47,164 nt of DNA. Source: Candidatus Bipolaricaulota bacterium. GTDB taxonomy: Bacteria; Bipolaricaulota; Bipolaricaulia; UBA7950; UBA9294. The notes beneath the pieces were generated by a model. The model did not search any database. It worked only from the letters and a program-made list of their open reading frames with translations, and was not told the origin of the DNA. Shown in pieces: positions 6,888 through 31,513 of this stretch. Each line of letters starts with the position of its first letter. Positions within the stretch are counted from its first letter, which is position 1. A program made the position numbers and the translations under genes. The stretch lies in contig JAGLXM010000283.1 in the NCBI GenBank assembly GCA_023132915.1, positions 1 to 47,164 of the forward strand, given 5' to 3'.

Positions 6888-6912
6888 ATCAGCGCACGAT
6901 GCGCAGGCCACC
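6888..6912. repeat. 25-bp direct repeat, copy 2 (kdgK last codons and stop)
   Basis: Identical to 5998-6022; encodes GGLRIVR-stop on the minus strand. Confidence 0.9.
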
Positions 6913-7878
6913 ACCCTCAAGGAGCCGTTCGGTCTCCTCGCAGGTCGCCCAACAAAGGTCGCCGGGGTTGGTCTGCTTGAGGGCGGAGATGGCAACGCCA
7001 TAGCGCACCGCAGCAGCAGGGCCGTCGTGCAGGTAACCGAAAAGAAACCCACCGGTGAAGGAATCACCGGAGCCAACTCGGTCCACGACCTCGATGTCGA
7101 ACTTCGGCCCGCGGTGGATCTTCCCATTGGCGTATGCGATGGCGGTCCAGGTGTTTCGCCACACCGATGGTGTCTCGCGCAAGGTGATTGCTACCGCTCC
7201 GAGGTGGAATTGCTCAGCCAGAGCCTTGGCAACCTCTTCGTAGTTATCCTTCTTGATCCCGAACACCCGCTCTGTGTCCTCCTCAGTGGTGATGAGGATG
7301 TCGGCTGCATCCACCAACTCTGACATGACCTCACGCGCTTTTTCTTGTGACCATAGCAATGCTCGGTAGTTGAGATCGATCGATACCTTGATGCCTGCCT
7401 TCCTCGCTACACGAACCGCCTCTTTTGTCGCCTCGGCCGCTGTGGAAGAGAGGGCTGGGGTGATCCCGGATGTGTGGAACATCTTTACCCCTTTAAAGAT
7501 CGCATCCCAATCGACTTCTCCAGGACGAATGCGTGCGATCGCTGAATCACGGCGGTCATATACCACGGAGTTGGGACGGGGGCTTGCCCCGAACTCCACA
7601 AAGTAGGTTCCCACCCGATCATCATCGGTCCAGACAATGTAGGAGGTATCCACTCCGTGCTCGCGGGCCTTGTTCGCGATCATCCGGCCCAGAGGATTGT
7701 TGGTGAGGCGAGTGACGTAGGCCACTCCAAGCCCTAGTCGTTGCGCAGCGACGGCCACGTTTAACTCCGAGCCTCCGACGTTTATATCGAGCAGGTTTGT
7801 CTGCTCCAGCCGCCGGAAATTCGGTGGTGAGAGGCGAATCATTGCCTCTCCAAACATCACAAGGTCATGGTGGCGCAT
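6889..7878 (-). CDS. kdgK: 2-keto-3-deoxygluconate kinase (PfkB family)
   Basis: FGEAMIRLSPP, GGSELNVA, DLNYRxxLWS, DRVGSGDSF; coupled to eda by a TGATG overlap. Confidence 0.85.
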   Translation of the reverse strand: MRHHDLVMFGEAMIRLSPPNFRRLEQTNLLDINVGGSELNVAVAAQRLGLGVAYVTRLTNNPLGRMIANKAREHGVDTSYIVWTDDDRVGTYFVEFGASPRPNSVVYDRRDSAIARIRPGEVDWDAIFKGVKMFHTSGITPALSSTAAEATKEAVRVARKAGIKVSIDLNYRALLWSQEKAREVMSELVDAADILITTEEDTERVFGIKKDNYEEVAKALAEQFHLGAVAITLRETPSVWRNTWTAIAYANGKIHRGPKFDIEVVDRVGSGDSFTGGFLFGYLHDGPAAAVRYGVAISALKQTNPGDLCWATCEETERLLEGGGLRIVR

Positions 7879-8528
7879 CAGGAATCCTCCCCTCTTGCCT
7901 TCCGAACAGCTTCTACGAGCAGGCAGGCGCGCTCAGTAAGGACTTCATAGCGACTCTCGGCCACCGCCTTCTCGTCCACCAGCCAGCCGCCAGTACACAC
8001 CATTGCGGCTCCGGCGCGGATGAACTCACCGGCGTTGTCGGCGGTGACGCCACCAGTGGGTACAAGTGGAATCTGGGGGAGCGGCCCTCGTATTGCCTTG
8101 AGATAACTCGGGCCCAGAACGCTTGCCGGAAACACCTTCACCATGTCCGCTCCAGCTTCCCAGGCGGTGAGTATCTCGGTCGGGGTCATCGCGCCAGGGA
8201 TGACAACCACCCCATAGCGATGGGCCATCTCGATCACATCGGGCTCCACCGTTGGGGTGACGAGGAACTCTGCCCCGGCGAGGATTGCTTGCCTGGCTGT
8301 AGTTCCATCCAATACCGTGCCCGCCCCCATGGTTACCCCTTCGAGCTTTCCGCCTGCCTCCTCGATTGCCCGCAGTGCCCCGGGCGTAGTCATCGTGATC
8401 TCGACACATTCGAGGCCACCATTGCGTAGAGCTCGGGCGATTCCGACGAGATCCTCGGCTGCCTGCACCCGGATGACCCCCAACACTCCAGCTTCTCGCA
8501 TTTGTACAAGAATTTTCACTTTGTTCAT
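7878..8528 (-). CDS. eda: KDPG/KHG aldolase
   Basis: GVIR, EITMTTPGA, GAGTV, PGAMTPTE, VKVFPA, PTGGV. SD AAGGAG favours ATG 8528 over 8549. Confidence 0.92.
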   Translation of the reverse strand: MNKVKILVQMREAGVLGVIRVQAAEDLVGIARALRNGGLECVEITMTTPGALRAIEEAGGKLEGVTMGAGTVLDGTTARQAILAGAEFLVTPTVEPDVIEMAHRYGVVVIPGAMTPTEILTAWEAGADMVKVFPASVLGPSYLKAIRGPLPQIPLVPTGGVTADNAGEFIRAGAAMVCTGGWLVDEKAVAESRYEVLTERACLLVEAVRKARGEDS

Positions 8529-8591
8529 GGTTCGCTCCTTATTGTTCATTCCTCAGTTCTTTATTGAATGTACTTTAGAACTAGCATAATC

Positions 8592-9143
8592 TTACCGCCA
8601 TTTATCGTACGTTACTATCTCATTTAACTTCTTACGCTTCTTAGGGAGGCTCGGACTGACAGCCTGAACTGGATATCCAAGTGGAAGCAAAATCACCACT
8701 CTGATCTGATCGGGGATATCAAGAATTTTCTTGACTTCATCCTCTTCAAAATCACCTATCCAGCAACTGCCTAGGCCTTCCTCTACTGCCTTAAGTGTCA
8801 TGTGATCTATAGCTATAGCTAGTTCTATAGGATACGCCACTTGGCCACAGGGCATGATACGACTGGTGTCAGTAGCACAAGCAGCTATGACGACTGGTGC
8901 CTGTCCTACGAATTCTTGGCCATGTGCGGTTTTGGTCAGTTTCTGTCGAGTAGAAGAGTCTCTTACTATCACAAACCGCCACTCCTGACGATTGTACGCT
9001 GAGGGAGCCCACCGAGCCGCCCCTAATACTCGCTTGAGTTTATCCTCTTCAACATCTTTGGTCTGATAATTGCGCACAGCATAGCGCTCTTTGATAGCAT
9101 CTATTACATTCATCGCGTTTAGCTCCTTAAAGTTGCTCTTCAT
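8592..9143 (-). CDS. Nitroreductase family protein
   Basis: RYAVRNY, APSAYNRQEWRF, GLGSCWIG, LPLGYP. True start may be the second Met (MNVIDAI). Confidence 0.88.
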   Translation of the reverse strand: MKSNFKELNAMNVIDAIKERYAVRNYQTKDVEEDKLKRVLGAARWAPSAYNRQEWRFVIVRDSSTRQKLTKTAHGQEFVGQAPVVIAACATDTSRIMPCGQVAYPIELAIAIDHMTLKAVEEGLGSCWIGDFEEDEVKKILDIPDQIRVVILLPLGYPVQAVSPSLPKKRKKLNEIVTYDKWR

Positions 9144-9219: not shown

Positions 9220-9339
9220 CTAAATGGCCTCCGCTACCTGAAGAAGATTATCGGAAGTCGTGGCCCTTATCACCGCTACAACTCCGGTGTCTAACATCAG
9301 TTGAAGATTCTCTTCGGCTGGGTTCATAAATGCGATCAT
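9220..9339 (-). pseudogene. Truncated second KDPG-aldolase (eda-like) 5' fragment
   Basis: Hand translation after SD AGGAG: MIAFMNPAEENLQLMLDTGVVAVIRATTSDNLLQVAEAI-stop, which aligns with AGVLGVIRVQAAEDLVGIARAL of the intact Eda. Confidence 0.7.
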
Positions 9340-9407: not shown

Positions 9408-10316
9408 CTAAACTACCAGTTCGGTTCCCACTTTATGTGATATCAGCAAATCTCGAACGCGATTCAGATGCTCTCTGGTGGGTGGTTCAAGACCCTGTAG
9501 CCCGTATTCTCTCCCTAACATCTTGTACTTTGAGACTCCTAGTCGATGATACGGTAAAAGATCCACTCTCAAAGCCAAGACCTCTTTAGTTAGTTCAATT
9601 AACTCATTGATATTCTCCTTCGAGTCATTTATTTTTGGTATTATAGCAAGCCGTATTATTATTGGCATCTTTTTCTGCCCCATTCGTCTAACATTCTCCA
9701 ATATCAGCTCGTTACTTGCCCCAGTATACGCTTTGTGCTTGAGTGGGTTCATGTGTTTAATATCATAGAGTGTTATATCAACATACTTTATAATCTTTTC
9801 TAAATCGCTCCACTGCCCATAACCGCTTGTATCCAATACCGTGTGAATCCCTCTCTCCTTGCATGCTTTAAGAATCTCTCTAGTGAACTCTGGTTGAGCG
9901 AGCGGCTCACCCCCTGATATTGTGACGCCGCCATCAGATGATCGATAGAACGGTATGTCCTTCTCGACCGCTTTTAGAACTTCTTCGACTGAGACCCTTT
10001 GTCCGATAACTGTTAGGGCGTTAGAGTAGCATACCTTTGCACACTCGTTGCATTTCACCTTACACAAATCTCTGCTGATCTTAATTCCTTGCCTTTCATC
10101 TTTTTCCATGGCATTTGCTGGGCATGTCTTTATACATTCCTCGCACCCATCGATATGAAGATTCGCATTGTACATTATCTCAGGCGATGAGCGCTGAGAT
10201 TCGGGATTACTGCACCATACACACCTAAGGGGACACCCTTTTAGAAACACGGTAGTCCTTATTCCCGGCCCATCATCTAGCCGAGACCTTTGTATGTCGA
10301 ATATCAATCCTTCCAT
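9408..10316 (-). CDS. Glycyl-radical-enzyme activating enzyme (radical SAM, ferredoxin insert)
   Basis: DGPGIRTTVFLKGCPLRCVWCSNPES (CX3CX2C), Cys-rich insert, GGVTISGGEP, LLPYHRLG; SD AAGGAGG. Confidence 0.93.
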   Translation of the reverse strand: MEGLIFDIQRSRLDDGPGIRTTVFLKGCPLRCVWCSNPESQRSSPEIMYNANLHIDGCEECIKTCPANAMEKDERQGIKISRDLCKVKCNECAKVCYSNALTVIGQRVSVEEVLKAVEKDIPFYRSSDGGVTISGGEPLAQPEFTREILKACKERGIHTVLDTSGYGQWSDLEKIIKYVDITLYDIKHMNPLKHKAYTGASNELILENVRRMGQKKMPIIIRLAIIPKINDSKENINELIELTKEVLALRVDLLPYHRLGVSKYKMLGREYGLQGLEPPTREHLNRVRDLLISHKVGTELVV

Positions 10317-10343: not shown

Positions 10344-12719
10344 TCAAGATGCTTCAAATTCAGTTCTGCTTAAAATTTCATCCTGAAGTTCTTTGCTGAG
10401 TTGGTTCCATGGAGCAACGTAAGCTGCAACTCTCACCATAAGCTCGGGGTACCTCTCCGGATGTTTTTGGGCTTCCTTTAACACTCTAATATCAACAATA
10501 TTAAATTGTATATGGAATCCGCCAAGGCTCAGATATGTCTTGATCAGCTTCGCGAAGTTTCGAAGCCGTTCTTTACCCGTCAGGGTGTGCACATTAAACC
10601 TCATGTTTAACAAAGTTCCATTCGCTACTAGCGCATGATCCTGTTTTACCATCGATTTCAAGACAGCGGTGGGGCCACTCTTCGCTTGCCCTTGTACTGG
10701 CGAATGCGCATCCGATAAGGGTGCCTTCGCCTTACGGCCGTCGGGGGTCGCACCAACGTATTCTCCAAGGGCATCATGAGATGACACAGAAAAGGTTCCC
10801 GGTAGAAATGGCCCCCCTCTCAGGTTCCTATACCAGTGTACCTCATTGCAGTAATGTCCAACGATCTCGCAGGCCAGATGATCCACTTCGTCTATATCAT
10901 TTCCGAACTTTGGTGGCTCGTTCAATAGCCTTTGCCTTAGCATCTCCCGCTCCTTAAAATCGCTGTTCAGAGATTCGAGCAAAGTTTCCATGCTGATAGC
11001 TCTCTCATCGAATATGAGTCTCTTTACGGCTATTAGAGAATCTGCGGCTGTCGCCATCCCTACTCCCTGGATACCTGTGAAGTTATAGAGGGCACCGCCG
11101 TGATTTACCTCCCGTCCGCTCTCTAAGCATCCGTCCACTAAGATGGATTCCAATGGTTCCGGCCACCGCTCTTTATGAGATAGCTCAACAGCATGTAAGG
11201 CTTGTACCAGCAAGCGAACTCCATTTGCAATTTGTTTCTCAAATGCATCCTTCAATTCACTAAACGACCTGAACTCCGTGGCTTTCCCTGTAGCTGGGCC
11301 TATTTTGTTATTAGTCTCCGGATCAATTCCGTTGTTTAGCGCTAATTCGAGACATTTAGCGAGATTTAGCGAGCCAGCGTTGCTCCATCCCCATGTTTTC
11401 CCAGGGATGGAGTTCTCAACGCAGCCTACGAATGCATAATTTCCCTCCGCCTCTTTTGGGGGTATACCCGCATTGATTAATGATTGGATACCGACATGCA
11501 CATTAAAGAATTTTGGCTTGTTAGTCTTTGGCACGAGCTTAGCTGCCTTGAGCAGAAACTCATCGCTCATCTTGTTCGTCCAGAGCACCGCAACGTCTGG
11601 TTGAGGGAGTCTAACCTCCTCCTCTACTTCGAGCATTAACTCCGAAAGCTCATTTGTGGCGTCCTCTCCCTCAGGAGTTAATCCCCCTAACTCGGGGGGA
11701 TCAGTTACAGGGAAACCAGCATACAATCTTGCGCCTTTATTGCTATACAATTTAAGAATTTCACTACACTTTAACCAAAAGCTGACTAATAAATCTTTAG
11801 CTTCATCTTTCGTTAAGTCGTGTTCTTTAACGCCACTTCTGAAATACGGATATAGATATTGATCCATCCTCCCAAGTGTCACACCGTAACCATTTGAATC
11901 TATATGAAGGATAACATGAATGAGCCACAATCCTTGCAGAGCTTCGTAAAAGGTTCGTGCTGGTTTAGCTGGTACCTGATCAAGCACTTCTACTATCTGC
12001 AGTAACTCTTTCCTCCTTTGCAAATCTCTTTCATCCTCGGCTAGACCTTTTGCAAGTTCCCTATACCGTTTAGCATAAGCCTTGACCGCCTCACAGCAAA
12101 TTAAACACGCTTTGTAAAATATGTTTTTGGAAAATTCCTCTGGGTTCTCTAAGCGCAAGGCGCTCATTCTATCTTTTATCGATTGTTCCATTCCGTTAAG
12201 ACCCTGCCTCAATACTCTTTCATAATTTGGTATGAAGTGACCAACTCCACTAATTAACATGTTTTCAAAACAAATTAACCCCGAATCATTAGCTTTTTTA
12301 GAATCCGCGGGCATTATTGAAAGGGCAAGATCTTTCAGCGTTTTCCCCAACCACCATGGAAGTGTCTCCCGCAACTTTCCTTTGACTTCTGCCGGCACTA
12401 TAAACTTATCTCCAGGCCTTGTTTCATATGTGTCCATTTCATTTAAAATATGATCTACGGCACCTTCCGGGTAAACTGGGGCAGATATAGGTTCAGGCCC
12501 TAAATTCCCTACAATAAGCTCATGAGGTTGAATATATATGGTCATCTCACTTAATATCTTCTTTAATGCCTTAGCTCGTCTTAGTATTTGGGGCTCCCCC
12601 TCAGTAGTCTTATAGATTTCCGTAATAAGTTTCGCTCTCTCTGAAGTAAGCTTGGGCTTTATCAGTCTTGCTAAGATCTTCTCTCTTACTTGTTTAATTT
12701 CTTCTTTTCTTAACATCAT
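10344..12719 (-). CDS. Glycyl-radical-enzyme (PFL2/dehydratase-like) homologue with Gly-to-Ala at the radical site; candidate aminoacyl radical enzyme
   Basis: ILRRAKAL, ELIVG, GRMDQYLYPY, GCVE Cys loop, PKFGNDIDEVD, ATPDGRKA, HIQFNIV. Radical loop reads LMVRVAAYVA (GCT codon at 10424-10422). Confidence 0.9.
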   Translation of the reverse strand: MMLRKEEIKQVREKILARLIKPKLTSERAKLITEIYKTTEGEPQILRRAKALKKILSEMTIYIQPHELIVGNLGPEPISAPVYPEGAVDHILNEMDTYETRPGDKFIVPAEVKGKLRETLPWWLGKTLKDLALSIMPADSKKANDSGLICFENMLISGVGHFIPNYERVLRQGLNGMEQSIKDRMSALRLENPEEFSKNIFYKACLICCEAVKAYAKRYRELAKGLAEDERDLQRRKELLQIVEVLDQVPAKPARTFYEALQGLWLIHVILHIDSNGYGVTLGRMDQYLYPYFRSGVKEHDLTKDEAKDLLVSFWLKCSEILKLYSNKGARLYAGFPVTDPPELGGLTPEGEDATNELSELMLEVEEEVRLPQPDVAVLWTNKMSDEFLLKAAKLVPKTNKPKFFNVHVGIQSLINAGIPPKEAEGNYAFVGCVENSIPGKTWGWSNAGSLNLAKCLELALNNGIDPETNNKIGPATGKATEFRSFSELKDAFEKQIANGVRLLVQALHAVELSHKERWPEPLESILVDGCLESGREVNHGGALYNFTGIQGVGMATAADSLIAVKRLIFDERAISMETLLESLNSDFKEREMLRQRLLNEPPKFGNDIDEVDHLACEIVGHYCNEVHWYRNLRGGPFLPGTFSVSSHDALGEYVGATPDGRKAKAPLSDAHSPVQGQAKSGPTAVLKSMVKQDHALVANGTLLNMRFNVHTLTGKERLRNFAKLIKTYLSLGGFHIQFNIVDIRVLKEAQKHPERYPELMVRVAAYVAPWNQLSKELQDEILSRTEFEAS

Positions 12720-15146: not shown

Positions 15147-15162
15147 AAAAGACCTCCCTTGG

Positions 15163-15507
15163 ATACCCCCCAGCTTACTGGGGGAAGGAAAGCGGAGATT
15201 CGCCGTAGGCGAATCTGCTTGTTAGTAGGGGCTACATGAGTTCTATCAGAAATGTCCGGTTGCAAGGTTGGGCGGAGACAATCGCTGCCGAGAATCTCGC
15301 GGGGAGAAGTCCCTTTAACGTCGAGGATAACCCCCTCAACGTCGGAGGTAAGCTCCGACGCTACGAAGAGATGGCCGTAGCGGCGCACCTTGTGTGCGAC
15401 GTTACCTTGGGTGTGATAAAGCAGTACATCAAATTGCACCATGAGGACCAACTCCGCTTAGATCTTTAGGTCTTGCTTTTCAATGCCCCGCAGCTTGCTG
15501 CGGGGTT
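15163..15507 (+). mobile_element. Internally deleted IS200/IS605-family remnant with REP-like hairpins
   Basis: Related hairpins at both ends: CCCCCAG-CTTA-CTGGGGG (15167-15184) and CCCCGCAG-CTTG-CTGCGGGG (15486-15505). Residual Y1-TnpA-like tail VTLGVIKQYIKLH...stop at 15401-15469. Confidence 0.7.
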
Positions 15508-15509
15508 CT

Positions 15510-17411: not shown

Positions 17412-17415
17412 GTTG

Positions 17416-17928: not shown

Positions 17929-18127
17929 ATTCCAGACCTCCTTTCCCTGCAAATACAGCTTCTCCTCTTCTTGCTTTCAAGTAACTCCAACACCCGCGGC
18001 AGAAGTAGACCCCTTCCTCACCTGTTGGTGAGGAGACGGCGTGCTCCTTGCACAGTGCCAGGCCGCACAAGTGGCACTGAAAGATCGCAGGGTTTGGACA
18101 CCCGGTTACACCACATTTCCCTTTCAT
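17909..18127 (-). CDS. Small Cys/His-rich putative zinc-finger protein (72 aa)
   Basis: CGVTGC, CHLC, CKEH, CRGC; ATGA overlap with the DUF917 stop and SD GGAGG. Confidence 0.65.
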   Translation of the reverse strand: MKGKCGVTGCPNPAIFQCHLCGLALCKEHAVSSPTGEEGVYFCRGCWSYLKARRGEAVFAGKGGLEYGDLDR

Positions 18128-22108: not shown

Positions 22109-22165
22109 CCAATTCAACCTCCTCGTTCAATAATAAAGTCAAAATCCTCTCCAGATCATGCTCAC

Positions 22166-24723: not shown

Positions 24724-24780
24724 CCGCACTCCCTCCTTATGTGCAATTGCTGGTTACCCTTCGCCTGGCAACATTCAATG

Positions 24781-25728
24781 TCATGCCCTTGTCAGACTAC
24801 GTGGGTCGAGGATGTCCCGGATCCCATCGCCCAAGAGATTGAACCCCAACCCCAACAGGAAGATGGCTGCTCCAGGGAAGGAGGCCATCCACCACCAGGA
24901 TGGCATGTACGTTCTGCCGATGCTGACCATCATGCCCCACTCCACCTGGGGTGGTTGAACTCCCAAACCAAGGAATCCCATTGCAGCGACGGCCAATATC
25001 GCCCTTCCAATCTGTAAGGATACCTGAACGATAATGATGTTCAGCGTGTTTGGAAGCACGTGAGCAAAAAGTATCCGTCGATTGGAAGCGCCTAATGCCC
25101 TCGCAGCTTCGACGAAGAATTTCTCTCTTATTTGGATCACCTCTCCCCTAACGACCCGTGCATACCAAGGCCACCAAGGGAGGGAGATCGCCAGTATGAG
25201 CTTAATTGGGCCTCGGCCTGTTGCCACGACGATTGCGATGACAAGAAGCATGTATGGAATCGCCATCATGATATCACCGACCCGCATAATGATTTCGTCC
25301 ACCTTGCCCCCAAAGTACCCGGCCAAGCAGCCTAGGATGATCCCTACCATTCCGGTGAAGAGAGTGACGGCAAGACCCAGTCCCAAAGAAAGCCGCGTTC
25401 CATAGATGATTCGGCTTAGTATGTCCCTACCCAGATCGTCCGTTCCCAGAAGATGGCTTGAGCTTGGCGGTTGGAGCTTGTCGTTGAGGTTCATCGCCTG
25501 GCCGGTGGCATCGGCAGGATACGGAGCAAGAAAGGGAGCGCACAGTGCCATGATTACGAAGACTGACACAATGGTAATACCGATCATGGTCAGAGGAGAC
25601 CGGCGAGCTATGCGCCAGACCTGTTGTCGTCTTGATAGCGACCGCAGGGCCTGATTGCCCCATTTCCGTTTATCGTCGTCGATCTGACTCTGAATCTTTC
25701 TGCAGAACTTCTCTTCATTTTGTTGCAC
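24781..25728 (-). CDS. ABC transporter permease (DppC/OppC type)
   Basis: HLLGTDDLGRDILSRIIYG, FVEAARALGAS, LGFNLLGDGIRD; GTG start after SD AGGAGG. Confidence 0.92.
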   Translation of the reverse strand: MQQNEEKFCRKIQSQIDDDKRKWGNQALRSLSRRQQVWRIARRSPLTMIGITIVSVFVIMALCAPFLAPYPADATGQAMNLNDKLQPPSSSHLLGTDDLGRDILSRIIYGTRLSLGLGLAVTLFTGMVGIILGCLAGYFGGKVDEIIMRVGDIMMAIPYMLLVIAIVVATGRGPIKLILAISLPWWPWYARVVRGEVIQIREKFFVEAARALGASNRRILFAHVLPNTLNIIIVQVSLQIGRAILAVAAMGFLGLGVQPPQVEWGMMVSIGRTYMPSWWWMASFPGAAIFLLGLGFNLLGDGIRDILDPRSLTRA

Positions 25729-25739
25729 AGATACCCTCC

Positions 25740-26762
25740 TTAGTTGTATCGCACCGTTGGGTTGACGACGGCGCAAAGCATGTCGGCCAACAGGTTGAGA
25801 AAGATGACGATCGTGGCACCGAGGATCGTCACTCCCATAATGGCGGGGAAATCCAGCCGAAAGATGGCTTGGACGACATACCGGCCTAACCCAGGCCAGG
25901 AGAAGATAAGCTCCACCAACACGGTCCCACCAAGTAGGAACCCATAGACCATGCCAATTATCATCAAAACCGGGATGAGGGTGTTTCTCAACGCGTGTTT
26001 GACGATTAGCTTAAATGTGCTGACGCCGGTGGCTCTCGCTGTCCTGATGTAATCCTGATACAGGACGTTAATCATTGCAGCACGGGAGATCCGCGTGACT
26101 TGAGCGACGTAGCAGAACGTCAGAGTAACCACCGGTAGTACAAGATGAAGCAGTGCGGATCCGAAGACAGCCCAATTTCGCTGTAGGGCGCTGTCTAACA
26201 GGTACAACCCCGTGATGGGCTTCAACGGATGATTGATTAGTGCGCCGATCGATGCACGACCATCGATCGGGAAACCAATGAAGATGGAAGCGAAAAGGAG
26301 TTGCAGAATTATGGCAAACCAGAACTCAGGCATGGAAATACCGGAGAGAGTGATCACTCGAATCGCATGGTCGAGTAACGTGTCTCTCTTAACCGCAGAC
26401 AAGACGCCGGTTAATATGCCAAATAAAATAATGAGAACTAACGAGATGGTAACCAGTTCCAACGTTGCAGGAAAGTACGCCTTGAGATCCTCGATCACCG
26501 GACGCTTCGAGATGATCGATCTTCCCATGTCTAGTTTCAGGAATAGCCGCTCTACGTATATAGCAAATTGTTCATACAGTGGTTTATCGAGTCCCATTTC
26601 TTCGCGGATGTGTTCTACAACCTTTGGATCCGCAATTCTGCCAGCGGCGATGACTGCTGGGTCACCAGGAACGATATGGGACAGTGTGAACGTGATCACC
26701 ACCACCCCGAATAGTGAGAAAATGGCGAGGCTCAGGCGTCTCAGCAAGTAATGTCCGCTCAT
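25740..26762 (-). CDS. ABC transporter permease (DppB/OppB type)
   Basis: PGDPA, GLDKPL, FPATLEL, DYIRTARATG, FSWPGLG. Confidence 0.92.
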   Translation of the reverse strand: MSGHYLLRRLSLAIFSLFGVVVITFTLSHIVPGDPAVIAAGRIADPKVVEHIREEMGLDKPLYEQFAIYVERLFLKLDMGRSIISKRPVIEDLKAYFPATLELVTISLVLIILFGILTGVLSAVKRDTLLDHAIRVITLSGISMPEFWFAIILQLLFASIFIGFPIDGRASIGALINHPLKPITGLYLLDSALQRNWAVFGSALLHLVLPVVTLTFCYVAQVTRISRAAMINVLYQDYIRTARATGVSTFKLIVKHALRNTLIPVLMIIGMVYGFLLGGTVLVELIFSWPGLGRYVVQAIFRLDFPAIMGVTILGATIVIFLNLLADMLCAVVNPTVRYN

Positions 26763-26792: not shown

Positions 26793-27482
26793 TCATTGCT
26801 CGGCATCCGTTTCCGAGAGAGCCCTCCTCGCGGGCCCAAACGGCGCGGTGGAGTCCGTCAACAGCGCCTTGGTTACCCTCACTGCCGCCCCTGCGTCTCG
26901 TGCATACCCATCGGCCCCGATTTCACGGGCGTACTCTTCCGATACAGGTGCCCCCCCGATCAGCACCTTGACCCGCTCTCTGAGGTCGGCTTTCTTGAGA
27001 GCATCGATGACCTTAGACATCGCGGGCATAGTTGATGTTAGCAATGCCGACATACCGAGAATATCTGGCTGCTTTTCTCTCACCGCTGTCACGAACCCGT
27101 CCGCTGGAACATCGACTCCTAGGCGATGAACTTCGAATCCAGTCCCTTCGAGCATCATGGCTACCAGGTTAATACCGATATCATGTAGATCGCCCTCGAC
27201 AGTGCCGATCACTATCACCCCCTTCGAGACGACTTTGGTTATAGTTAACCTAGGCCGCAACCTGTCCACCGCGCTTTTCATAGCATCGGCGGACAGAAGC
27301 ATCTCCGGAATATAGCGGACTCCTCGCTCGTATTCCTCACCTACCATATCCATGGCTGGGCGGAGCGCTCGGTCGAGAATCGCCTCGGGCTCGTGCATCT
27401 TGAGCGCTTCCTCTGTCAGCTCGGCAGCCAGCTGTTCATCGGCATCGATCACGCTCTGATAAAGCTGTTCTAGTAGTCCCAT
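26793..27482 (-). CDS. Corrinoid (B12-binding) methyltransferase protein, MttC/MtaC type
   Basis: GTVEGDLHDIG (DxHxxG), SALLT, IGGAP, IGADGY. Confidence 0.92.
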   Translation of the reverse strand: MGLLEQLYQSVIDADEQLAAELTEEALKMHEPEAILDRALRPAMDMVGEEYERGVRYIPEMLLSADAMKSAVDRLRPRLTITKVVSKGVIVIGTVEGDLHDIGINLVAMMLEGTGFEVHRLGVDVPADGFVTAVREKQPDILGMSALLTSTMPAMSKVIDALKKADLRERVKVLIGGAPVSEEYAREIGADGYARDAGAAVRVTKALLTDSTAPFGPARRALSETDAEQ

Positions 27483-27503: not shown

Positions 27504-28646
27504 TCAGCATCCCGCTGCGATTTCCCTTAGGATCTTGAGATAGCACGTGTAGTTCTTGAACGAAACCTCCGGTGGAACAAAGTGGTCCAGGGCGGGGAAA
27601 TACCCACCCTGAGAAAGCAGAAACGGTATCTTCTTTTCCAGTTCCTCCCGGATGGCCTTCTCCCCCTCGACCAGCGCACGTTTGTCGATGTTGCCGATAA
27701 GGACAAGGTCGGTCCCGTATTCCTTGCGCAGTTCCACGGCGTCCATGCCGGCGGTGACCTCCAGCGGATAGTGTCCGTTGATACCGCTTTCCAACCAAAG
27801 CGGAATTAGCTCTCGCGTGTCCCCGTCGGAGTCGACCAGTATCGTGTTTACCCCCTTCTCCCGCAGCACCCTGTTAATGCGCTTGTAATGAGGCATCATG
27901 AACTCGCGAAATGTCTTCGGCGCGATCATCGAACCTGCCTTGTAGGCCATGTCCTCCCAGTATGTCGCATAGTCTGGCTGCACGTTAGGGAGGATCTTGT
28001 TGAGAATCTCGATAGCGAAGTATTCCAGCCACTCACATATCTCGTGGATGAAGTCGGCGTCTCGATAGTACATTCGGCTCAGCGTCTCCAAACCGAGGAA
28101 CTCCCTCAGGAATCCGAAGAAACTACCCACTGATAATCCCAGTATGTGGTCACGGTTCTTCCACTCCTTGACCCGATCATCCCACCAGGCAGGAAAACGC
28201 GCCGGATCATGCGGATCCAGCCGTTCCTCCTTAAGGCGCTCCCAATCCTCACGGTTTTCAACGGGAAACCTGAGCCATTGCGGCATTCGCTCAGGATGGT
28301 CCTTTAGAATCTTGCATTCCTTCCCCGCCTCGTCGACGACAATCTCCCACCTCTCCCCTGATTGAAGGACCTTCCGCTCGAACGGAGGACTGTAGGGTGG
28401 AGTATAGGGCGGATCGATCCCCCAGCCCAACCCTTGTATTGAAAGGATAACCGGAACGACCTCGACCCGATCAAATCCGAAAAACTCGTGACAGCGTTCA
28501 TAGTCCAGGATTTCCCTGGGAGCGCCCTCTTCGCGAACCCAACGGTGAACCGTCTCCCCCCAGAACCATTGAAAGAAAGAGGGAATTAGCAGGGAGTGTC
28601 TTAGTTCAAAACGCGCCACCTTCTGGAACGTCTCGCGTATGTTCAT
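27504..28646 (-). CDS. Uroporphyrinogen-decarboxylase-fold protein (MtaA/CmuA-like)
   Basis: WEDMAYK, FREFMMPHY, VDSDG, IGNIDKR, YFPALDHFVPP. Confidence 0.8.
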   Translation of the reverse strand: MNIRETFQKVARFELRHSLLIPSFFQWFWGETVHRWVREEGAPREILDYERCHEFFGFDRVEVVPVILSIQGLGWGIDPPYTPPYSPPFERKVLQSGERWEIVVDEAGKECKILKDHPERMPQWLRFPVENREDWERLKEERLDPHDPARFPAWWDDRVKEWKNRDHILGLSVGSFFGFLREFLGLETLSRMYYRDADFIHEICEWLEYFAIEILNKILPNVQPDYATYWEDMAYKAGSMIAPKTFREFMMPHYKRINRVLREKGVNTILVDSDGDTRELIPLWLESGINGHYPLEVTAGMDAVELRKEYGTDLVLIGNIDKRALVEGEKAIREELEKKIPFLLSQGGYFPALDHFVPPEVSFKNYTCYLKILREIAAGC

Positions 28647-28718
28647 GTCAGCGTCCTCTTCCACACAGCGAGGTCATGGGGTGTTCACCACCGGAATTGT
28701 TACATTTGTCGTTTTTAT

Positions 28719-28809: not shown

Positions 28810-30387
28810 CTACCTATCCAGGTACATAAGATAGAAGTCGTAGATCCCAAAGTTTGCTGGGGTGAATACGAATCCCTTCACATAGTCCCTCATCGCGATT
28901 GCATCACCGATCTGGAATGCCCAGATTCCAAGTGCATCGTTGACGATAATCTCTTGAGCTTGTGCGTAGAGGGCGTGTCTTTGCTCGATGTTCGCGGTGA
29001 GTGCGGCTTTTGTCAGCAGCTCGTTTATTTCGGCATTGGAGTACCCGCGCGGGTAGCACGGGGTGTAGTCGTCCGTGCATTTGAAGTACAAGGTGATGAA
29101 GTTTGTTGCTTCTGGATAGTCTGGCCAATGCTCCACGATGAAGATGTCGACACCCTCTTTTTCGGGCGAAGTGGCCCAAGGACTGAACTGTCCCCAGACC
29201 ATCTCCTCCAGTTTCAATCCGACGCCGATCTCCCGCAGGTTGCGCTGGAATAACTCGAAGATCTGCCGATTCCGGGTCATCGTGTAGTGGACGAGCGTCA
29301 GTGTCAGTTCTCCCGGCGCGTAGCCAGCGGCCGCCAGATCCTCCTTAGCCTTGTCGAGGTCGGTATGGTAGACAAACAGCTGATCGCTGTGCCCGGCGAC
29401 GACGCTCGGCATGGGGCCTTGCAGCTGAACGCTCCCCATCCCAGCAACCTCCACCGCCTCCTCGTACGGGAACGCCCATGAGAGGGCCTTTCGCAGGTGC
29501 AGGTTGTCCATGACGGGGCTAGAGAAGATTGGCAGGTACCACACGACGTTCAGTGTAGCGAGTTCGGCGATCTCAACGCCGGGGGTCGCTCTTAGATTGT
29601 CCAAGTCCTCCGGCTGAGGGAAATCGATCATATCGACCTGCCCTTGCTCCAATAGTAGTTTTCTGGTGGTGTATTCAGGGACGAGTCTCCGGACGATGAT
29701 CTCGATGTGTTTCCCTTCCCAACCACCCCAGTAGTCGTCATTCTTGCTCAGGACCACCCGGTCGCCAGGGATCCATTCGATCAGCTTGTAGGGGCCCGTA
29801 CCAACGAGGTTATTGCTCAACCAGTTTTCTGCCCATGGGTCGTCGCCGGTCGCATGCTCGGCGAGCGCCTTGGGGCTCAGGATGTGCAAGCCGGCCTTTG
29901 CGGTCAGGTTGTAAAGGAACGAGACAGATGGTTGCACGAGGTGCAGCTTGATAGTGTAGTCATCGACAACCTCGACGGCGCTGATCTCAGCTAGCCTAGA
30001 AGAAGGCCCTTTCCCCAGAGCAAGCACCCGCTCTATGTTAACCTTAACGGCCTCAGCGTTGAAAGGTGCCCCATCCGTAAACCCGATTCCGTGCCGCAGG
30101 TGAAAGGTGTACGTCCTCAGATCGTCGGAGACGTCATAGCTTTCCGCAAGCTGTGGAATAATCTCGCTCGTTCCGGGCTTGAAACGCGTTAGATTCTCGC
30201 ACACCTGCATGATGATGTTATTCGCCGTTCCGGAGTCGGTGCCGTGTGCATCGAGGGTGGGAATGTCATAGAACCCTGCACAGGTGAGCATACCACCGTC
30301 TGCCACGGCTACCACCGATATAATCAACCATGAACCAACTAGAATCACTGCCGCTAAACCACTAAACTTAAAGATCCTTCCTCGCAT
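28810..30387 (-). CDS. ABC transporter substrate-binding protein, family 5 (DppA-like)
   Basis: Signal peptide; PQLAESY, YTFHLR..F.DG.PFNAEAVK, GTGPYKL, LRKALSWA; SD AAGGAGG. Confidence 0.92.
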   Translation of the reverse strand: MRGRIFKFSGLAAVILVGSWLIISVVAVADGGMLTCAGFYDIPTLDAHGTDSGTANNIIMQVCENLTRFKPGTSEIIPQLAESYDVSDDLRTYTFHLRHGIGFTDGAPFNAEAVKVNIERVLALGKGPSSRLAEISAVEVVDDYTIKLHLVQPSVSFLYNLTAKAGLHILSPKALAEHATGDDPWAENWLSNNLVGTGPYKLIEWIPGDRVVLSKNDDYWGGWEGKHIEIIVRRLVPEYTTRKLLLEQGQVDMIDFPQPEDLDNLRATPGVEIAELATLNVVWYLPIFSSPVMDNLHLRKALSWAFPYEEAVEVAGMGSVQLQGPMPSVVAGHSDQLFVYHTDLDKAKEDLAAAGYAPGELTLTLVHYTMTRNRQIFELFQRNLREIGVGLKLEEMVWGQFSPWATSPEKEGVDIFIVEHWPDYPEATNFITLYFKCTDDYTPCYPRGYSNAEINELLTKAALTANIEQRHALYAQAQEIIVNDALGIWAFQIGDAIAMRDYVKGFVFTPANFGIYDFYLMYLDR

Positions 30388-30751
30388 TTCCTGTACCTCC
30401 TTGTTGTCTAGATCTGATTTTCGGTTCCAGTACCCGCCTTCGCCTTTTGTGAATCACCTCCTTAACTTGTTGTTGGTCTCTCGTTGCTCTGCAACGGAGC
30501 ATTTCCTATGAATTAACTTTTTCAGTTGTGGTAGTTTCACAACACCAGCAATGTGCGCATTCTTGTTCCTCCGGATCAAGCAGATCTGCCCCTGATTATC
30601 ATCTCAACCTTCACAGGAATACTCTCTGAAGGGTTCAAGAGAAGCGCGGGCATGACTGCTGCGGGTAGCAAATGACTTAAACCTCGCTGTAATGCTCTTA
30701 CTACCCATCTCTAAAACTCCTTGTTACTATCAACCCACGTGTTGTAGGAAT

Positions 30752-31513
30752 TTAGTTCTTCACATAGCCTAATGCCCGCGATATTTCCGTTGCAGTTTTC
30801 GTAACCGTAGCGATCATCTTCTCGGACTCTTCTGAACTATCGAACTCGCGTTTCAGCCCTGTTAGACTGACCGCCCCCACTACATCTCCGCCGTATTCTT
30901 TGATTGGAGCAGCGAAACACTTTATGCCCTCTTCATGTTCTCCATTGTCGATCGCATAGCCGCGTTCCGCGGTCGTCTTGATCTCCTCTAATAATTGAAG
31001 CGGATCGGTGATCGTGTTTGGTGTACGCCTTTCTAGGGTGGCTTCTCGTAGCAGGGACACCACCTGATCCGTGGGTAGTCCACTCAAGAGTGCCTTTCCC
31101 ACCCCTGTACAGTAGGCTGGGGCGCGGCTGCCAATCCTGGACATTATGGGAAGGGTCCTGTGGCTTTCGATCTTGTCGATGTAGACGACGTCTTGACGAT
31201 CCAACACGCACAGGTGAACGGTCATCCGCGTGTCGTCGTTCAGCTCGACGAGGAAAGGATGAGCGGTTTCACGCAGAGGCATCCGACGCAGCAACTGACT
31301 GCCCAACTCCAGGATCTTGTTGCCAAGATGGTAGTGACCATCGCCATCGCTTTGGATATAGCCCATGTCAAGGAGGGAATTGATGTATCTGTAGACACTC
31401 GTCTTGTGGACCCCGATGCGATCCGCCAGCTCGACCACGGTCAGCCCTTCCGCACTCTGAGCCAGCTCTTCGAGAAGTTTGAGCCCTTTTTCCAGGATTT
31501 TCGCATTTGCCAT
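30752..31513 (-). CDS. IclR-family transcriptional regulator (KdgR-like)
   Basis: HTH LADRIGVHKTSVYR; GSRAPAYCTGVGKALL, TPNTITD, GYAIDNGE. Confidence 0.92.
   Translation of the reverse strand: MANAKILEKGLKLLEELAQSAEGLTVVELADRIGVHKTSVYRYINSLLDMGYIQSDGDGHYHLGNKILELGSQLLRRMPLRETAHPFLVELNDDTRMTVHLCVLDRQDVVYIDKIESHRTLPIMSRIGSRAPAYCTGVGKALLSGLPTDQVVSLLREATLERRTPNTITDPLQLLEEIKTTAERGYAIDNGEHEEGIKCFAAPIKEYGGDVVGAVSLTGLKREFDSSEESEKMIATVTKTATEISRALGYVKN

What the first reader, a model, noticed from the sequence alone, without database searches (positions are those of the whole stretch)
6889..31513. 24.6-kb co-oriented catabolic cluster that I cannot match to a known pathway
Seen: about 21 intact minus-strand genes, many with overlapping stop/start codons, from IclR through transporter, B12 methyltransferases, SDR, hydrolase, racemase, flavoprotein, DUF917, AOR, two aminotransferases, the Ala-GRE and activase, to eda-kdgK. 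Inference: anaerobic uptake and breakdown of a methylated, nitrogen-containing and probably polyhydroxylated or heterocyclic compound. Steps would be demethylation, ring or amide hydrolysis with racemisation, transamination, radical elimination and aldehyde oxidation, with carbon leaving via KDG/KDPG. The cluster could also be a patchwork of several modules.
Basis: partly seen in the sequence, partly recalled or inferred. Interest (0 to 1): 0.8.

Follow-up and report, generated by a model that had tools for sequence, protein, structure and literature searches.

The report
Catabolic gene cluster with alanyl-radical enzyme
This is a real 21-gene breakdown pathway of an uncultured sediment anaerobe whose gene set recurs in related genomes, and here it has picked up an alanine-based radical enzyme of a class whose function is still unknown.

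Summary
In detail: 21 co-oriented minus-strand genes lie at 6889-31513, and one listed ORF (15143-15451) is a dispersed repeat, not a gene. The "Ala-GRE" is a member of the alanyl radical enzymes (ARE) described in 2024, which still have no assigned function. ARE neighbourhoods beyond close relatives share only the activase (15 of 17 loci) and sometimes AOR (3 of 17). The rest of the cluster is nevertheless not a random patchwork. Fifteen of its 21 families recur co-oriented, without any ARE, in another genome of the same family: MttB, corrinoid protein, URO-D-like, SBP5 transporter, NicX/M29-like, FMN reductase, DUF917, polyferredoxin-AOR, class-V aminotransferase, Eda, KdgK and IclR. Fourteen and nine of them recur in two further genomes. 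eda-kdgK are native and collinear with a relative. The cassette AT5-AT12-ARE-AE carries a truncated eda of its own, has low GC3, and occurs in 1 of 184 genomes of the phylum, so it looks horizontally acquired. My reading is an uncharacterised anaerobic pathway for a methylated, nitrogen-containing, sugar-like or heterocyclic compound that ends in pyruvate + GAP. The radical eliminase extends it. The substrate is unknown, and all the chemistry is inferred.

The parts
30752..31513 (-). IclR-family regulator
   Evidence: PF01614 and PF09339. Best NCBIfam hits PcaR/BhcR/KdgR-like, all below cutoff. 87% identical copy at the head of L021. Promoter-like site at 31580-31552 (site counts not above shuffles).
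28810..30387 (-). SBP_bac_5 substrate-binding protein (Dpp/opine/nickel type)
   Evidence: PF00496, 268 bits. Best PDB matches 5u4o and HbpA 6ofq, about 170 bits. Opine binders AgaA and AccA are among weaker hits.
27504..28664 (-). URO-D / MtaA-CmuA-like protein, inferred methylcorrinoid methyltransferase
   Evidence: PF01208, 53.8 bits. TIGR01463, 26.9 bits, below cutoff. URO-D genes sit next to the binding protein or DUF917 in G132, G176 and G040, and beside MTHFR-MttB in G132.
26793..27482 (-). Corrinoid protein
   Evidence: PF02310+PF02607. MtgC-like, 216.6 bits, below cutoff 370. DLHDIG motif at residue 98.
25740..26762 (-). ABC permease, DppB type
   Evidence: PF00528+PF19300.
24781..25776 (-). 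ABC permease, DppC type
   Evidence: PF00528+PF12911. No ATPase gene follows it. ATPases of this type lie elsewhere in the genome.
23248..24729 (-). MttB-superfamily methyltransferase with no in-frame stop (non-pyrrolysine type)
   Evidence: PF06253, 321.5 bits. TIGR02369, 411 bits, below cutoff 525. MtgB structure 2qne, 244 bits. Homologues of 48-56% identity in 4 other genomes of the phylum.
22166..23005 (-). Short-chain dehydrogenase
   Evidence: PF00106. Generic NCBIfam hits only. Not part of the recurrent set.
21083..22117 (-).
   Evidence: 7cn3, E 4e-11. Atlas clusters carrying PF26233 NicX, score 0.98. Paralogues on C8, C201 and C282. 30-31% identical homologues in G132 and G176.
20280..21056 (-). 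Asp/Glu/hydantoin-type racemase
   Evidence: PF01177. Hydantoin racemase 3qvj, 95 bits, and allantoin racemase 5lfd. 59-60% identical paralogues on C8.
19262..19927 (-). NADPH-dependent FMN reductase family protein
   Evidence: PF03358. 53-59% identical homologues beside DUF917 in G155, G045, G132, G176 and G040.
18124..19251 (-). DUF917 (S-Me-THD-like) protein, inferred ring or amidine hydrolase
   Evidence: PF06032+PF20906. Thiohydantoin desulfurase models at only 40-64 bits against cutoffs of 440-450. 47-53% identical homologues in the recurrent set.
17416..17952 (-). 4Fe-4S polyferredoxin, partner of AOR
   Evidence: PF13247 and others. The Fd-AOR pair recurs in L073, L075, L078, L096-L098 and L100.
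15510..17462 (-). Aldehyde:ferredoxin oxidoreductase family (tungstopterin type)
   Evidence: PF02730+PF01314. Other AOR paralogues (30-45% identity to this one) lie near AREs of three clades: L003, L011, L012 and L019.
15147..15509 (.). Dispersed repeat spacer (the listed 102-aa ORF is not a gene)
   Evidence: 58 matches across the own genome. 15-20x depth spike with many joints and loose ends. No Pfam, NCBIfam or Rfam match. L020 has a Flavin_Reduct gene at this spot.
13893..15146 (-). Class-V aminotransferase (AGXT/PucG/BhcA-like), AT5
   Evidence: PF00266. PucG 3isl, 146 bits, plus serine/alanine-glyoxylate aminotransferases. 4-nt overlap with AT12.
12694..13896 (-). Class-I aminotransferase (aspartate aminotransferase-like), AT12
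   Evidence: PF00155, 247 bits. 26-nt overlap with the ARE gene. Absent from the ARE-less versions of the gene set.
10344..12719 (-). Alanyl radical enzyme (GRE homologue with Ala766 at the radical site)
   Evidence: PF02901+PF01228. RVAAY, Cys433-Val-Glu435, His161. Falls in the Ala clade with DgARE. Glycerol dehydratase 1r8w, 646 bits.
9408..10316 (-). Radical-SAM activating enzyme
   Evidence: TIGR02494, 352 bits, above cutoff 174. CX3CX2C motif at residue 28.
9220..9339 (-). Remnant of a third Eda-type aldolase gene (39 codons)
   Evidence: Aligns with the N-terminus of the eda fragment that follows AE in L018/L020: score 115. It scores 79 against the L019 eda, where 500 shuffles of the peptide gave a mean of 24, sd 4, max 43.
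8592..9143 (-). Nitroreductase-family flavoprotein
   Evidence: PF00881. Follows AE also in L019 and L021. Paralogues paired with DUF6092 on C8 and C313.
7878..8549 (-). KHG/KDPG aldolase (Eda)
   Evidence: TIGR01182 above cutoff. Only copy in the genome. Collinear with G152.
6889..7878 (-). KDG-kinase-like PfkB kinase
   Evidence: PF00294. KDG/KDGal kinase models at 315-375 bits, below equivalog cutoffs. Only copy in the genome. 72-77% identical and collinear in family members.

Best explanation
The stretch is one catabolic locus built on a gene set that recurs in this phylum without any radical enzyme. The set comprises:
- binding-protein-dependent uptake;
- MttB + corrinoid protein + URO-D-like methyl transfer (removal of an N-methyl group to a folate-type acceptor);
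- DUF917, a hydantoin-type racemase and a NicX/M29-like enzyme (opening, epimerising or hydrolysing a cyclic or amide-linked nitrogen compound);
- flavin reductases;
- a class-V aminotransferase (amine to carbonyl);
- a tungsten-type aldehyde:ferredoxin oxidoreductase with its polyferredoxin (aldehyde to acid);
- KDG kinase plus Eda aldolase (2-keto-3-deoxy acid to pyruvate + glyceraldehyde-3-phosphate);
- control by an IclR regulator.

In this lineage only eda-kdgK are clearly native. A horizontally acquired cassette, AT5-AT12-ARE-AE, which once carried its own eda, has been spliced in between AOR and eda.

The ARE is a member of the alanyl radical enzymes. It keeps the thiyl Cys, the Glu and the His of the diol-dehydratase type. 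It most likely performs a radical 1,2-elimination (loss of water, possibly ammonia) on a hydroxylated amino- or oxo-acid intermediate. The resulting carbonyl compound would then be taken on by the aminotransferases, AOR and Eda. In this way the cassette widens or shortcuts the older pathway.

Shown: the gene families, their recurrence, the mosaic composition and the class membership of the ARE. Inferred: every chemical step, the substrate class (an amino-sugar-acid-like, opine-like or heterocyclic methylated compound) and co-transcription.
For: Recurrence without an ARE:
- G176 carries, on one strand over about 22 kb, MttB-IclR-NicX-like-Flavin_Reduct-FMNred-DUF917-URO-D-SBP5-permB-permC-2 ATPases-ZnADH-ATC_hydrolase-Fd-AOR-class V AT-eda-corrinoid protein-kdgK. 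That is 15 of the window's 21 families.
- G132 has 14 of them, plus MTHFR next to URO-D-MttB.
- G040 has 9 of them, with a CUT2 sugar-type transporter.
- A shorter backbone, DUF917-FMNred-transporter-Fd-AOR-eda-AT5b-kdgK, is seen whole or in part in G155, G172, G157, G152 and G045.

Native anchor: window 2800-8504 is collinear with G152 (SpoIVB-like, Mur ligase, kdgK, eda). eda and kdgK are 72-77% identical to those of family members, against 43-59% for AOR, Fd, DUF917 and FMNred.

Acquired cassette:
- GC3 is 0.43-0.49 for NTR, AE, ARE and AT12, against 0.65-0.67 for eda and kdgK. Genome GC is 0.546.
- The ARE occurs in 1 of 184 genomes of the phylum. The 10 other GRE hits all read RVAGY.
- A truncated eda follows AE in the window, L018, L020 and L022.
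- A truncated kdgK lies just upstream of the ARE in L019.
- An ISL3 transposase fragment lies just upstream of the ARE in L021.

Close ARE loci (87-93% identity): all 5 keep ARE-AE next to an Eda gene and a class-V aminotransferase despite rearrangements.

ARE chemistry:
- Best solved relative is B12-independent glycerol dehydratase (E 8e-193).
- Cys433 is invariant, and Glu435 and His161 (GD His164) are at least 90% conserved in 45 AREs.
- Different AOR paralogues sit near AREs of three clades.

Class membership: Fu et al. 2024 (sections 5, 8 and 9 read).
Against: - No transcript data are available.
- Promoter-like and terminator-like sites are no more frequent than in shuffles.
- No motif is shared between intergenic regions.
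- Gaps of 242-364 bp and a promoter-like site at 20049-20021 allow several transcription units.
- The relatives' loci hold two IclR genes each (G132, G040), so the recurrent set may be two or three adjacent operons for different compounds.
- The transporter has no ATPase genes here.
- Racemase-like matches in G132, G176 and G040 are weak (24-29% identity).
- The URO-D genes of the relatives resemble the L021 type, not the window's.
- The ARE of L021 is split into two frames, so the cassette can decay.
- ARE neighbourhoods in other phyla point to TRAP-imported carboxylates, not to this gene set.
- All relatives compared are kin from one phylum and are not independent.
Confidence: 0.5

Rival explanations
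1. Patchwork: several independent units that merely lie side by side. These would be a betaine or methylamine demethylation unit with a transporter, a hydantoin/cyclic-dipeptide-type unit, an ARE-AOR unit, and the organism's general KDG kinase/aldolase pair. Each would serve a different substrate.
For: GC3 falls into three blocks. There are six gaps of 145-364 bp and a promoter-like site before FMNred. The genome holds at least four other loci with racemase + DUF917 + nitroreductase + peptidase + SBP5 transporter and no MttB, AOR or eda. These match the hydantoin-type clusters noted around cyclodipeptide-oxidase genes (PMC11055893, one passage read). eda and kdgK are the only copies in the genome. 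G132 and G040 have two IclR genes within the set.
Against: The same families turn up together again in G176, G132 and G040 in different orders, and in G176 all on one strand. URO-D is wedged between binding protein and permease in the window and in G040. MttB replaces the ATPase position directly after permC in the window. The class-V aminotransferase sits between eda and kdgK in five relatives.
Confidence: 0.25
2. The ARE cassette is a recent passenger with no role in the host pathway: a mobile, possibly decaying insertion.
For: Present in 1 of 184 genomes of the phylum. Low GC3. A transposase fragment and a split ARE in L021. A dispersed repeat and truncated eda/kdgK genes at its borders.
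Against: The ARE is intact in the window and in L018, L019, L020 and L022. Ala, Cys, Glu and His are conserved. The cassette is translationally coupled to two aminotransferases. It always lands beside Eda-type aldolase genes of three different lineages. The whole stretch is found almost unchanged in contigs from runs of several studies.
Confidence: 0.1
3. A specific version: the locus degrades a 2-amino-2-deoxy-aldonate-type compound (glucosaminate-like) released from a methylated or peptide-like conjugate. The ARE plus aminotransferases would replace the PLP-dependent DgaE step that yields KDG/KDPG.
For: L021 has a split ARE. It carries a DgaE-family lyase (257 bits, cutoff 385) plus a RidA-family gene in the same IclR ... 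eda-AT5b-kdgK frame. G006 has IclR-AT5b-RidA-SBP5 transporter-amidohydrolase-DgaE-like. The backbone uses a monosaccharide-type (CUT2) transporter in G155, G045 and G040. The kinase and aldolase are of the KDG/KDPG type.
Against: No step has been tested. DgaE-like and AT5b genes co-occur, so they are not simple alternatives. Nothing explains MttB, DUF917 or the flavin reductases. I know of no natural methylated glucosaminate conjugate (recalled, not searched).
Confidence: 0.12

Closest known systems
Alanyl radical enzymes (AREs) of the aminoacyl radical enzyme class, e.g. DgARE of Desulfoscipio geothermicus DSM 3669 (Fu et al., JACS 2024, PMC11528403)
   Same: PFL-like fold domains. Ala in place of the radical Gly within RVxG[FWY]. 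Conserved Cys. Adjacent radical-SAM activase. 54% identity to DgARE and the same Ala clade.
   Different: A separate subclade (12 of 138 tree rows). Its neighbourhood is two aminotransferases, AOR, Eda and KdgK. The DgARE locus instead has a TRAP transporter, LarA-like, Fe-ADH, 2-hydroxyacid dehydrogenase and AOR. No ARE has a known reaction (review PMC13450708, passages read).
B12-independent glycerol dehydratase (Clostridium butyricum, PDB 1r8w) and 1,2-propanediol dehydratase (5i2a)
   Same: Best solved relatives (646 and 598 bits). Cys433-x-Glu435 and the His164 equivalent are kept. The roles of these residues come from review passages.
   Different: Ala instead of Gly at the radical site. 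GD His281-Ser282 become Tyr-Gly, Tyr339 becomes Thr, and His446-Asp447 become Ser-Asn. That these GD residues bind glycerol is recalled, not taken from a call; if so, glycerol is unlikely to be the substrate.
MtgB/MtgC-type glycine betaine:corrinoid methyltransferase systems (MttB superfamily without pyrrolysine; Desulfitobacterium hafniense DSY3156, PDB 2qne)
   Same: An uninterrupted MttB homologue, a corrinoid protein with DxHxxG, and a third methyltransferase-like gene.
   Different: Only 244 bits to MtgB and below all equivalog cutoffs. The third component is URO-D-like. No activase is in the cluster; RamA-like genes lie on C162 and C46, below cutoff. The genes are interleaved with an ABC transporter.
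Semi-phosphorylative Entner-Doudoroff end steps (KdgK + Eda) and the Salmonella D-glucosaminate route (DgaE + DgaF)
   Same: A kinase/aldolase pair with a 1-nt overlap. Eda scores above the TIGR01182 cutoff. A DgaE-family gene lies in the sister locus L021.
   Different: No sugar-acid dehydratase of the usual kinds is in the window. A class-V aminotransferase is embedded between eda and kdgK in relatives.
Hydantoin-type gene clusters around cyclodipeptide-oxidase-like nitroreductases (Nat Commun 2024, PMC11055893)
   Same: Nitroreductase-family gene, PF01177 racemase, DUF917 and transport genes together (one passage read). The genome has at least four such loci.
   Different: The window lacks the small DUF6092 partner and AroM. 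It adds MttB, AOR, aminotransferases, ARE and Eda-KdgK.
Taurine/isethionate pathway of Bilophila (aminotransferase, reductase, GRE IslA, aldehyde handling; PMC6386719, seen only as title and abstract in a search listing)
   Same: The logic of removing an amine by transamination and then using a radical eliminase next to a hydroxyl group.
   Different: No sulfonate genes. IslA is a distant relative (353 bits). The end product here goes to an Eda-type aldolase.

Membership tests
Alanyl radical enzymes (AARE class) | PFL-like and glycine-radical domains | tested here: met
   PF02901 684.5 bits and PF01228 88.8 bits.
Alanyl radical enzymes (AARE class) | Ala in place of Gly in the RVxG[FWY] fingerprint, not a sequencing error | tested here: met
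   RVAAY with codon GCT. The same residue is in 77 of 121 top clusters. All four Ala codons are used across the 24 ARE loci read, of which 19 are full-length and L002, L008, L010 and L021 are partial or broken. An independent contig (X8) covers 9886-11408 with 1 differing letter.
Alanyl radical enzymes (AARE class) | Conserved thiyl-radical Cys | tested here: met
   Cys433 is invariant in alignments A1 and A2.
Alanyl radical enzymes (AARE class) | Adjacent activating enzyme with CX3CX2C | tested here: met
   TIGR02494, 352 bits, above cutoff. CPLRCVWC at residue 28, 27 bp downstream of the ARE.
Alanyl radical enzymes (AARE class) | Falls in the monophyletic Ala clade with DgARE | tested here: met
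   94 Ala and 44 Gly rows are separated by one branch, SH-aLRT 92. Quick IQ-TREE on 138 rows; three proteins under 700 aa were left out.
Alanyl radical enzymes (AARE class) | Forms a stable alanyl radical on activation | not testable with these tools
   Needs anaerobic reconstitution and EPR, as done for DgARE (PMC11528403).
GRE 1,2-eliminases of the dehydratase type | CxE motif on the Cys loop and the His that protonates the leaving hydroxyl | tested here: met
   C433-V-E435, and H161 aligned to GD His164. Both are at least 90% conserved in 45 AREs. The lower ARE clade lacks both.
GRE 1,2-eliminases of the dehydratase type | Demonstrated elimination from a vicinal diol or amino alcohol | not testable with these tools
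   No substrate is known.
Non-pyrrolysine MttB methyltransferase system | MttB fold without an in-frame amber codon, a cognate corrinoid protein, and a methylcorrinoid:acceptor methyltransferase | tested here: inconclusive
   MttB and the corrinoid protein are clear. The third gene is only weakly MtaA-like (26.9 bits against cutoff 235). The activase is encoded elsewhere and scores below cutoff.
KDG kinase / KDPG aldolase pair | Scores above curated family cutoffs | tested here: inconclusive
   Eda passes TIGR01182 (195.7 against 156). The kinase reaches 315-375 bits but stays below equivalog cutoffs of 440-700.
Cyclodipeptide-oxidase-associated hydantoin-type clusters | Nitroreductase pair (large subunit plus small partner) with racemase, DUF917 or AroM, and transporter | tested here: not met
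   The window has the nitroreductase, racemase, DUF917 and transporter, but no DUF6092-type partner and no AroM. The paralogous loci on C8 and C313 do have them.

The most novel reading that the evidence does not exclude
The cassette AT5-AT12-ARE-AE gives the first physiological setting for an alanyl radical enzyme. In this setting it would be a radical dehydratase or deaminase acting on an amino- or oxo-polyhydroxy acid, and its product would be fed to a tungsten AOR and an Eda-type aldolase. The gene set into which it is spliced would be an undescribed anaerobic pathway of seep and subsurface sediment bacteria for a methylated, nitrogen-containing, sugar-like compound (an N-methylated amino-sugar acid, opine or heterocycle).
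Probability: 0.25. Interest if true: 0.85.

Novelty: new variant of a known kind. Interest (0 to 1): 0.62.

Why it matters
Aminoacyl radical enzymes were described in 2024. As of a June 2026 review (PMC13450708) none has an assigned reaction. The authors of the original paper wrote that neighbourhood clustering gave no clear lead.

This locus narrows the search for one ARE subclade. The ARE is translationally coupled to two aminotransferases. It always sits beside Eda-type aldolase genes. It lies inside a recurrent gene set with a dedicated binding protein and regulator, both of which can be screened for ligands.

Independently of the ARE, the recurrent set has no described pathway. The set is MttB, URO-D, DUF917, flavin reductases, AOR, class-V aminotransferase, Eda and KdgK. 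A library search for papers naming three or more of five related terms (MttB, hydantoin racemase, AOR, KDG kinase, glycyl radical) found none. DNA of this locus is held in sediment metagenomes of several studies, which suggests a real but unknown substrate in such habitats.

Tried and rejected
- RNA evidence: no RNA holder was listed for 12000-21999, so co-transcription could not be examined.
- Promoter and terminator scans gave counts equal to shuffles.
- A search for a shared operator among nine intergenic regions gave only scattered 12-mers.
- Rfam gave no match in 6500-32000.
What lies more than 10 kb upstream of the ARE there, including whether MttB is present, therefore stays open.
- Contexts of the intermediate AREs P0007-P0014 (57-72% identity) could not be fetched, apart from L001 and L011.
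- My earlier reading was that the MttB-racemase half is specific to the window, because synteny with L018 and L022 breaks at 19927. I dropped it after searches showed the same families together in other genomes.
- Ideas considered and left without support: hydroxyproline betaine, ectoine or hydroxyectoine (the EutA-like hit in L021 scores only 90 bits against cutoff 318), ergothioneine, purine or allantoin, trigonelline, rhizopine, and glycerate or threonate dehydration.
- Earlier notes of this scan on this genome: none near the finding.
- Supplementary tables and figures of Fu et al. (ARE lists, neighbourhood figures) were not seen. They may already include relatives of this ARE.

Full report
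**What is there**

The window is the whole of contig C205 of a 2.49-Mb metagenome-assembled genome (354 contigs, 91% complete, 7% contamination). Between 6889 and 31513 the ORF list shows 22 minus-strand ORFs of at least 100 aa. Pfam and NCBIfam name 20 of them. In order of transcription they are:
- IclR
- SBP_bac_5 binding protein
- URO-D/MtaA-like protein
- corrinoid protein (DLHDIG at residue 98)
- two Dpp-type permeases
- MttB homologue without an internal stop
- SDR
- a 344-aa protein
- Asp/Glu/hydantoin racemase
- FMN_red
- DUF917
- polyferredoxin
- AOR
- a 102-aa ORF
- class-V aminotransferase (AT5)
- class-I aminotransferase (AT12)
- PFL-like glycyl-radical-type enzyme
- its activase
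- nitroreductase
- Eda
- a KDG-kinase-like PfkB kinase

The 344-aa protein is NicX/Peptidase_M29-like (7cn3, E 4e-11; Atlas 0.98). The 102-aa ORF is not a gene. The 363-bp AOR-AT5 spacer is a dispersed repeat with 58 matches in the genome, and it shows a 15-20-fold depth spike with many joints in metagenome contigs.

Five of 20 junctions overlap, and six gaps measure 145-364 bp. There is no ABC ATPase gene in the cluster, although 18 matches of that type lie elsewhere in the genome. Contigs from runs of three studies bridge the largest gap at 19927-20280, so the assembly is sound there.

**The radical enzyme**

The glycyl fingerprint reads RVAAY, with the Ala766 codon GCT at 10422-10424. This is a known class. 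Fu et al. 2024 (PMC11528403; sections 5, 8 and 9 read) described alanyl, seryl and threonyl radical enzymes. They showed radical formation for DgARE of Desulfoscipio geothermicus, listed 17 AREs, and found no shared neighbours other than the activase. A June 2026 review states that no AARE function is known (PMC13450708, passages). A library search for 'alanyl radical' or 'aminoacyl radical enzyme' lists no functional paper.

Of the query plus its 120 best clusters, 77 carry Ala and 42 carry Gly; two lack the C-terminus. In a tree of 138 rows one branch separates 94 Ala from 44 Gly rows (SH-aLRT 92). All four Ala codons occur across the loci.

The best solved relative is B12-independent glycerol dehydratase (E 8e-193). 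Cys433 is invariant in 45 AREs, and Glu435 and the His164 equivalent (His161) are at least 90% conserved there. GD His281-Ser282, Tyr339 and His446-Asp447 are replaced by Tyr-Gly, Thr and Ser-Asn. A second, lower ARE clade lacks both the Glu and the His. The genome also has an ordinary RVAGY enzyme on C89.

**Neighbourhoods of ARE homologues**

In 17 loci from species genomes (40-63% identity), window proteins were sought by tblastn at E 1e-10 or better and over 50% coverage. The results were:
- the activase in 15 loci;
- AOR in 3 (L003, L011, L012);
- IclR in 2;
- SDR in 3;
- a ferredoxin in 1;
- none of the other families in any locus.

For Pfam I passed 110 of 201 ORFs from 13 loci. I left out L009, the short loci, the ARE/AE ORFs and far flanks. 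TRAP transporters turned up in 7 loci. Fe-ADH plus 2-hydroxyacid dehydrogenase plus AOR turned up in 3. LarA-like, GntR-FCD, an IlvD/EDD fragment, an enolase-superfamily gene and CoA-transferase plus hydratase also appeared. The theme there is imported hydroxy-carboxylates.

Five metagenome loci with 87-93% identical AREs are closer to the window:
- L018 and L022 read ...ATPase-Amidohydro_2-Flavin_Reduct-FMNred-DUF917-Fd-AOR-repeat-AT5-AT12-ARE-AE-eda fragment/PALP fragment-RraA-like-eda-kdgK.
- L020 is the same from AOR on.
- L019 reads AOR (another paralogue, 45%)-MoaD-like-eda (66%)-AT5b-kdgK fragment-ARE-AE-NTR-eda (97%).
- L021 reads IclR (87%)-RidA-SBP5-EutA/Amdase-like-permeases-Amidohydro_2-DgaE-family lyase-URO-D-ISL3 fragment-ARE split in two frames-AE-NTR-eda-AT5b-kdgK.

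In the window, a 39-codon remnant of a third Eda-type gene follows the activase (9220-9339). It aligns with the eda fragment of L018/L020 with a score of 115. It scores 79 against the L019 eda, where 500 shuffles of the peptide gave 24 ± 4.

**The turn in the analysis**

I searched the 184 species genomes held for this phylum. The class-V aminotransferase AT5b was found in 47 genomes at E 1e-60 or better. I extended the eight best loci:
- G155: DUF917-FMNred-CUT2 binding protein-permease-Fd-AOR-eda-AT5b-kdgK.
- G172: permease-Fd-AOR-eda-AT5b.
- G157 and G152: eda-AT5b-kdgK.
- G045: IclR-ATPase-DUF917-FMNred-binding protein-permease-Fd-AOR-Flavin_Reduct-AT5b.
- G006: IclR-AT5b-RidA-SBP5 transporter-amidohydrolase-DgaE-like-PALP.

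The G152 locus is collinear with window 2800-8504 (SpoIVB-like, Mur ligase, kdgK, eda). The window's eda-kdgK are therefore native, and an AT5b gene between them has been lost.

The ARE itself occurs in only 1 of the 184 genomes. The ten other GRE hits (37-41% identity) all read RVAGY.

MttB homologues of 48-56% identity occur in four other genomes. I extended three of them:
- G176 has, on one strand over about 22 kb, MttB-IclR-NicX-like-Flavin_Reduct-(weak racemase-like)-FMNred-DUF917-URO-D-SBP5-permB-permC-two ATPases-ZnADH-ATC_hydrolase-Fd-AOR-AT5b-eda-corrinoid protein-kdgK. That is 15 of the window's 21 families. ARE, AE, AT12, NTR and SDR are lacking.
- G132 has 14 of them. MTHFR lies beside URO-D-MttB, and an Octopine_DH-domain gene and an aldehyde dehydrogenase are also present.
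- G040 has 9, with a CUT2 transporter.

**Composition**

Genome GC is 0.546. GC3 values fall into three blocks:

| Block | Genes | GC3 |
|---|---|---|
| Low-coordinate end | eda, kdgK | 0.65-0.67 |
| Middle | NTR to MttB | 0.43-0.57 |
| (lowest part of the middle) | NTR, AE, ARE, AT12 | 0.43-0.49 |
| High-coordinate end | permC to IclR | 0.60-0.69 |

Identities to family members are 72-77% for eda and kdgK but 43-59% for AOR, Fd, DUF917 and FMNred. The 23 kb upstream of eda therefore looks like a xenologous, itself mosaic, version of the same gene set, with the ARE cassette as its most foreign part.

**Other copies of parts of the set in the same genome**

Contigs C8, C313, C201 and C294 carry racemase, DUF917, nitroreductase + DUF6092, AroM, peptidases (M20, M24, M28, NicX-like) and complete SBP5 transporters. 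These match the hydantoin-type clusters noted around cyclodipeptide-oxidase genes (PMC11055893, one passage). RamA-like genes lie on C162 and C46, below the family cutoff.

**How it most likely works**

Shown: the families, their recurrence, and the insertion history. Inferred: the following chemistry.
1. A methylated nitrogen compound is taken up by the binding-protein system.
2. One methyl group is passed by MttB to the corrinoid protein and on, probably by the URO-D-like protein, to a folate. The MTHFR neighbour in G132 fits this.
3. DUF917, the racemase and the NicX/M29-like enzyme open or trim a cyclic or amide-linked part.
4. An amine is removed by transamination.
5. An aldehyde is oxidised by AOR with its polyferredoxin.
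6. The carbon leaves as a 2-keto-3-deoxy acid through KdgK and Eda.

The sugar-type transporter in three relatives and the DgaE/RidA genes in two point to an amino-sugar-acid-like core. The acquired cassette adds two aminotransferases and a dehydratase-type radical eliminase. I take it to convert a hydroxylated amino- or oxo-acid into a carbonyl compound that the older enzymes can finish.

AOR paralogues of different lineages lie beside AREs of three clades. This is the best single hint that ARE products are aldehydes.

**What weakens this**

- There are no transcripts.
- Promoter and terminator signals are no better than chance.
- No shared operator was found.
- Several gaps are large.
- Two IclR genes occur in relatives' loci.
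- Racemase-like matches in relatives are weak.
- The window's URO-D protein is of a different subtype.
- The ATPases are missing.
- The ARE in L021 is decayed.
- All comparisons are among kin of one phylum.

**Verdict**

The ARE is a new member of a known class in a new setting. The surrounding gene set is a recurrent, undescribed pathway whose substrate remains unknown.

That agrees with the AOR link.

Noticed in passing
window 15147-15509: The spacer between AOR and AT5 is built from a dispersed repeat (units of about 100-180 bp, hairpin-rich). It has 58 matches on more than 30 contigs of the same genome and very high depth in sediment metagenomes. No Rfam family matches it.
   Followed up: partly
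window 9220-9339 (minus strand): A 39-codon remnant of an Eda-type aldolase gene lies directly after the activase. The same remnant, fused to a PALP fragment, follows AE in L018, L020 and L022.
   Followed up: yes
proteins P0002-P0091 and loci L001-L022: The Ala clade is much larger in metagenome protein collections than the 17 AREs listed in 2024. 77 of the 121 best 90%-identity clusters carry Ala.
   Followed up: partly
alignment A2, e.g. P0048, P0055, P0059, P0065, P0088: A second ARE clade keeps the Cys but has lost the Glu of CxE and the His164 equivalent. It is unlikely to be a dehydratase of the glycerol-dehydratase type.
   Followed up: no
L015 (Firmicutes bacterium UBA3567 contig) 1745-13358: Three GRE-family genes lie in a row (two with Gly, one with Ala), with two activases and transposase fragments between them.
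   Followed up: no
L021 9535-12350: In one close relative the ARE is split into two reading frames near residue 472-482 and is preceded by an ISL3 transposase fragment. The truncated product is on record from four contigs (P0026).
   Followed up: partly
own genome contigs C8:15500-35000, C313:1-8000, C201:26500-38591, C294:1-4000: Four further loci combine hydantoin-type racemase, DUF917, nitroreductase + DUF6092, AroM, peptidases and Dpp-type transporters. C8 also has hydantoinase A, a creatinase/prolidase-type M24 enzyme and a proline-racemase-family gene.
   Followed up: partly
window 24781-30387: The ABC transporter has a binding protein and two permeases but no ATPase genes. The URO-D-like and corrinoid genes lie between the binding protein and the permeases, and MttB sits where the ATPases would be expected.
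   Followed up: partly
own genome C89:1546-2547 and C279:313-2772: The genome also encodes a canonical RVAGY glycyl radical enzyme fragment (C89) and a second activase with a GRE-like gene of 35% identity (C279). Both lie on short contigs.
   Followed up: no
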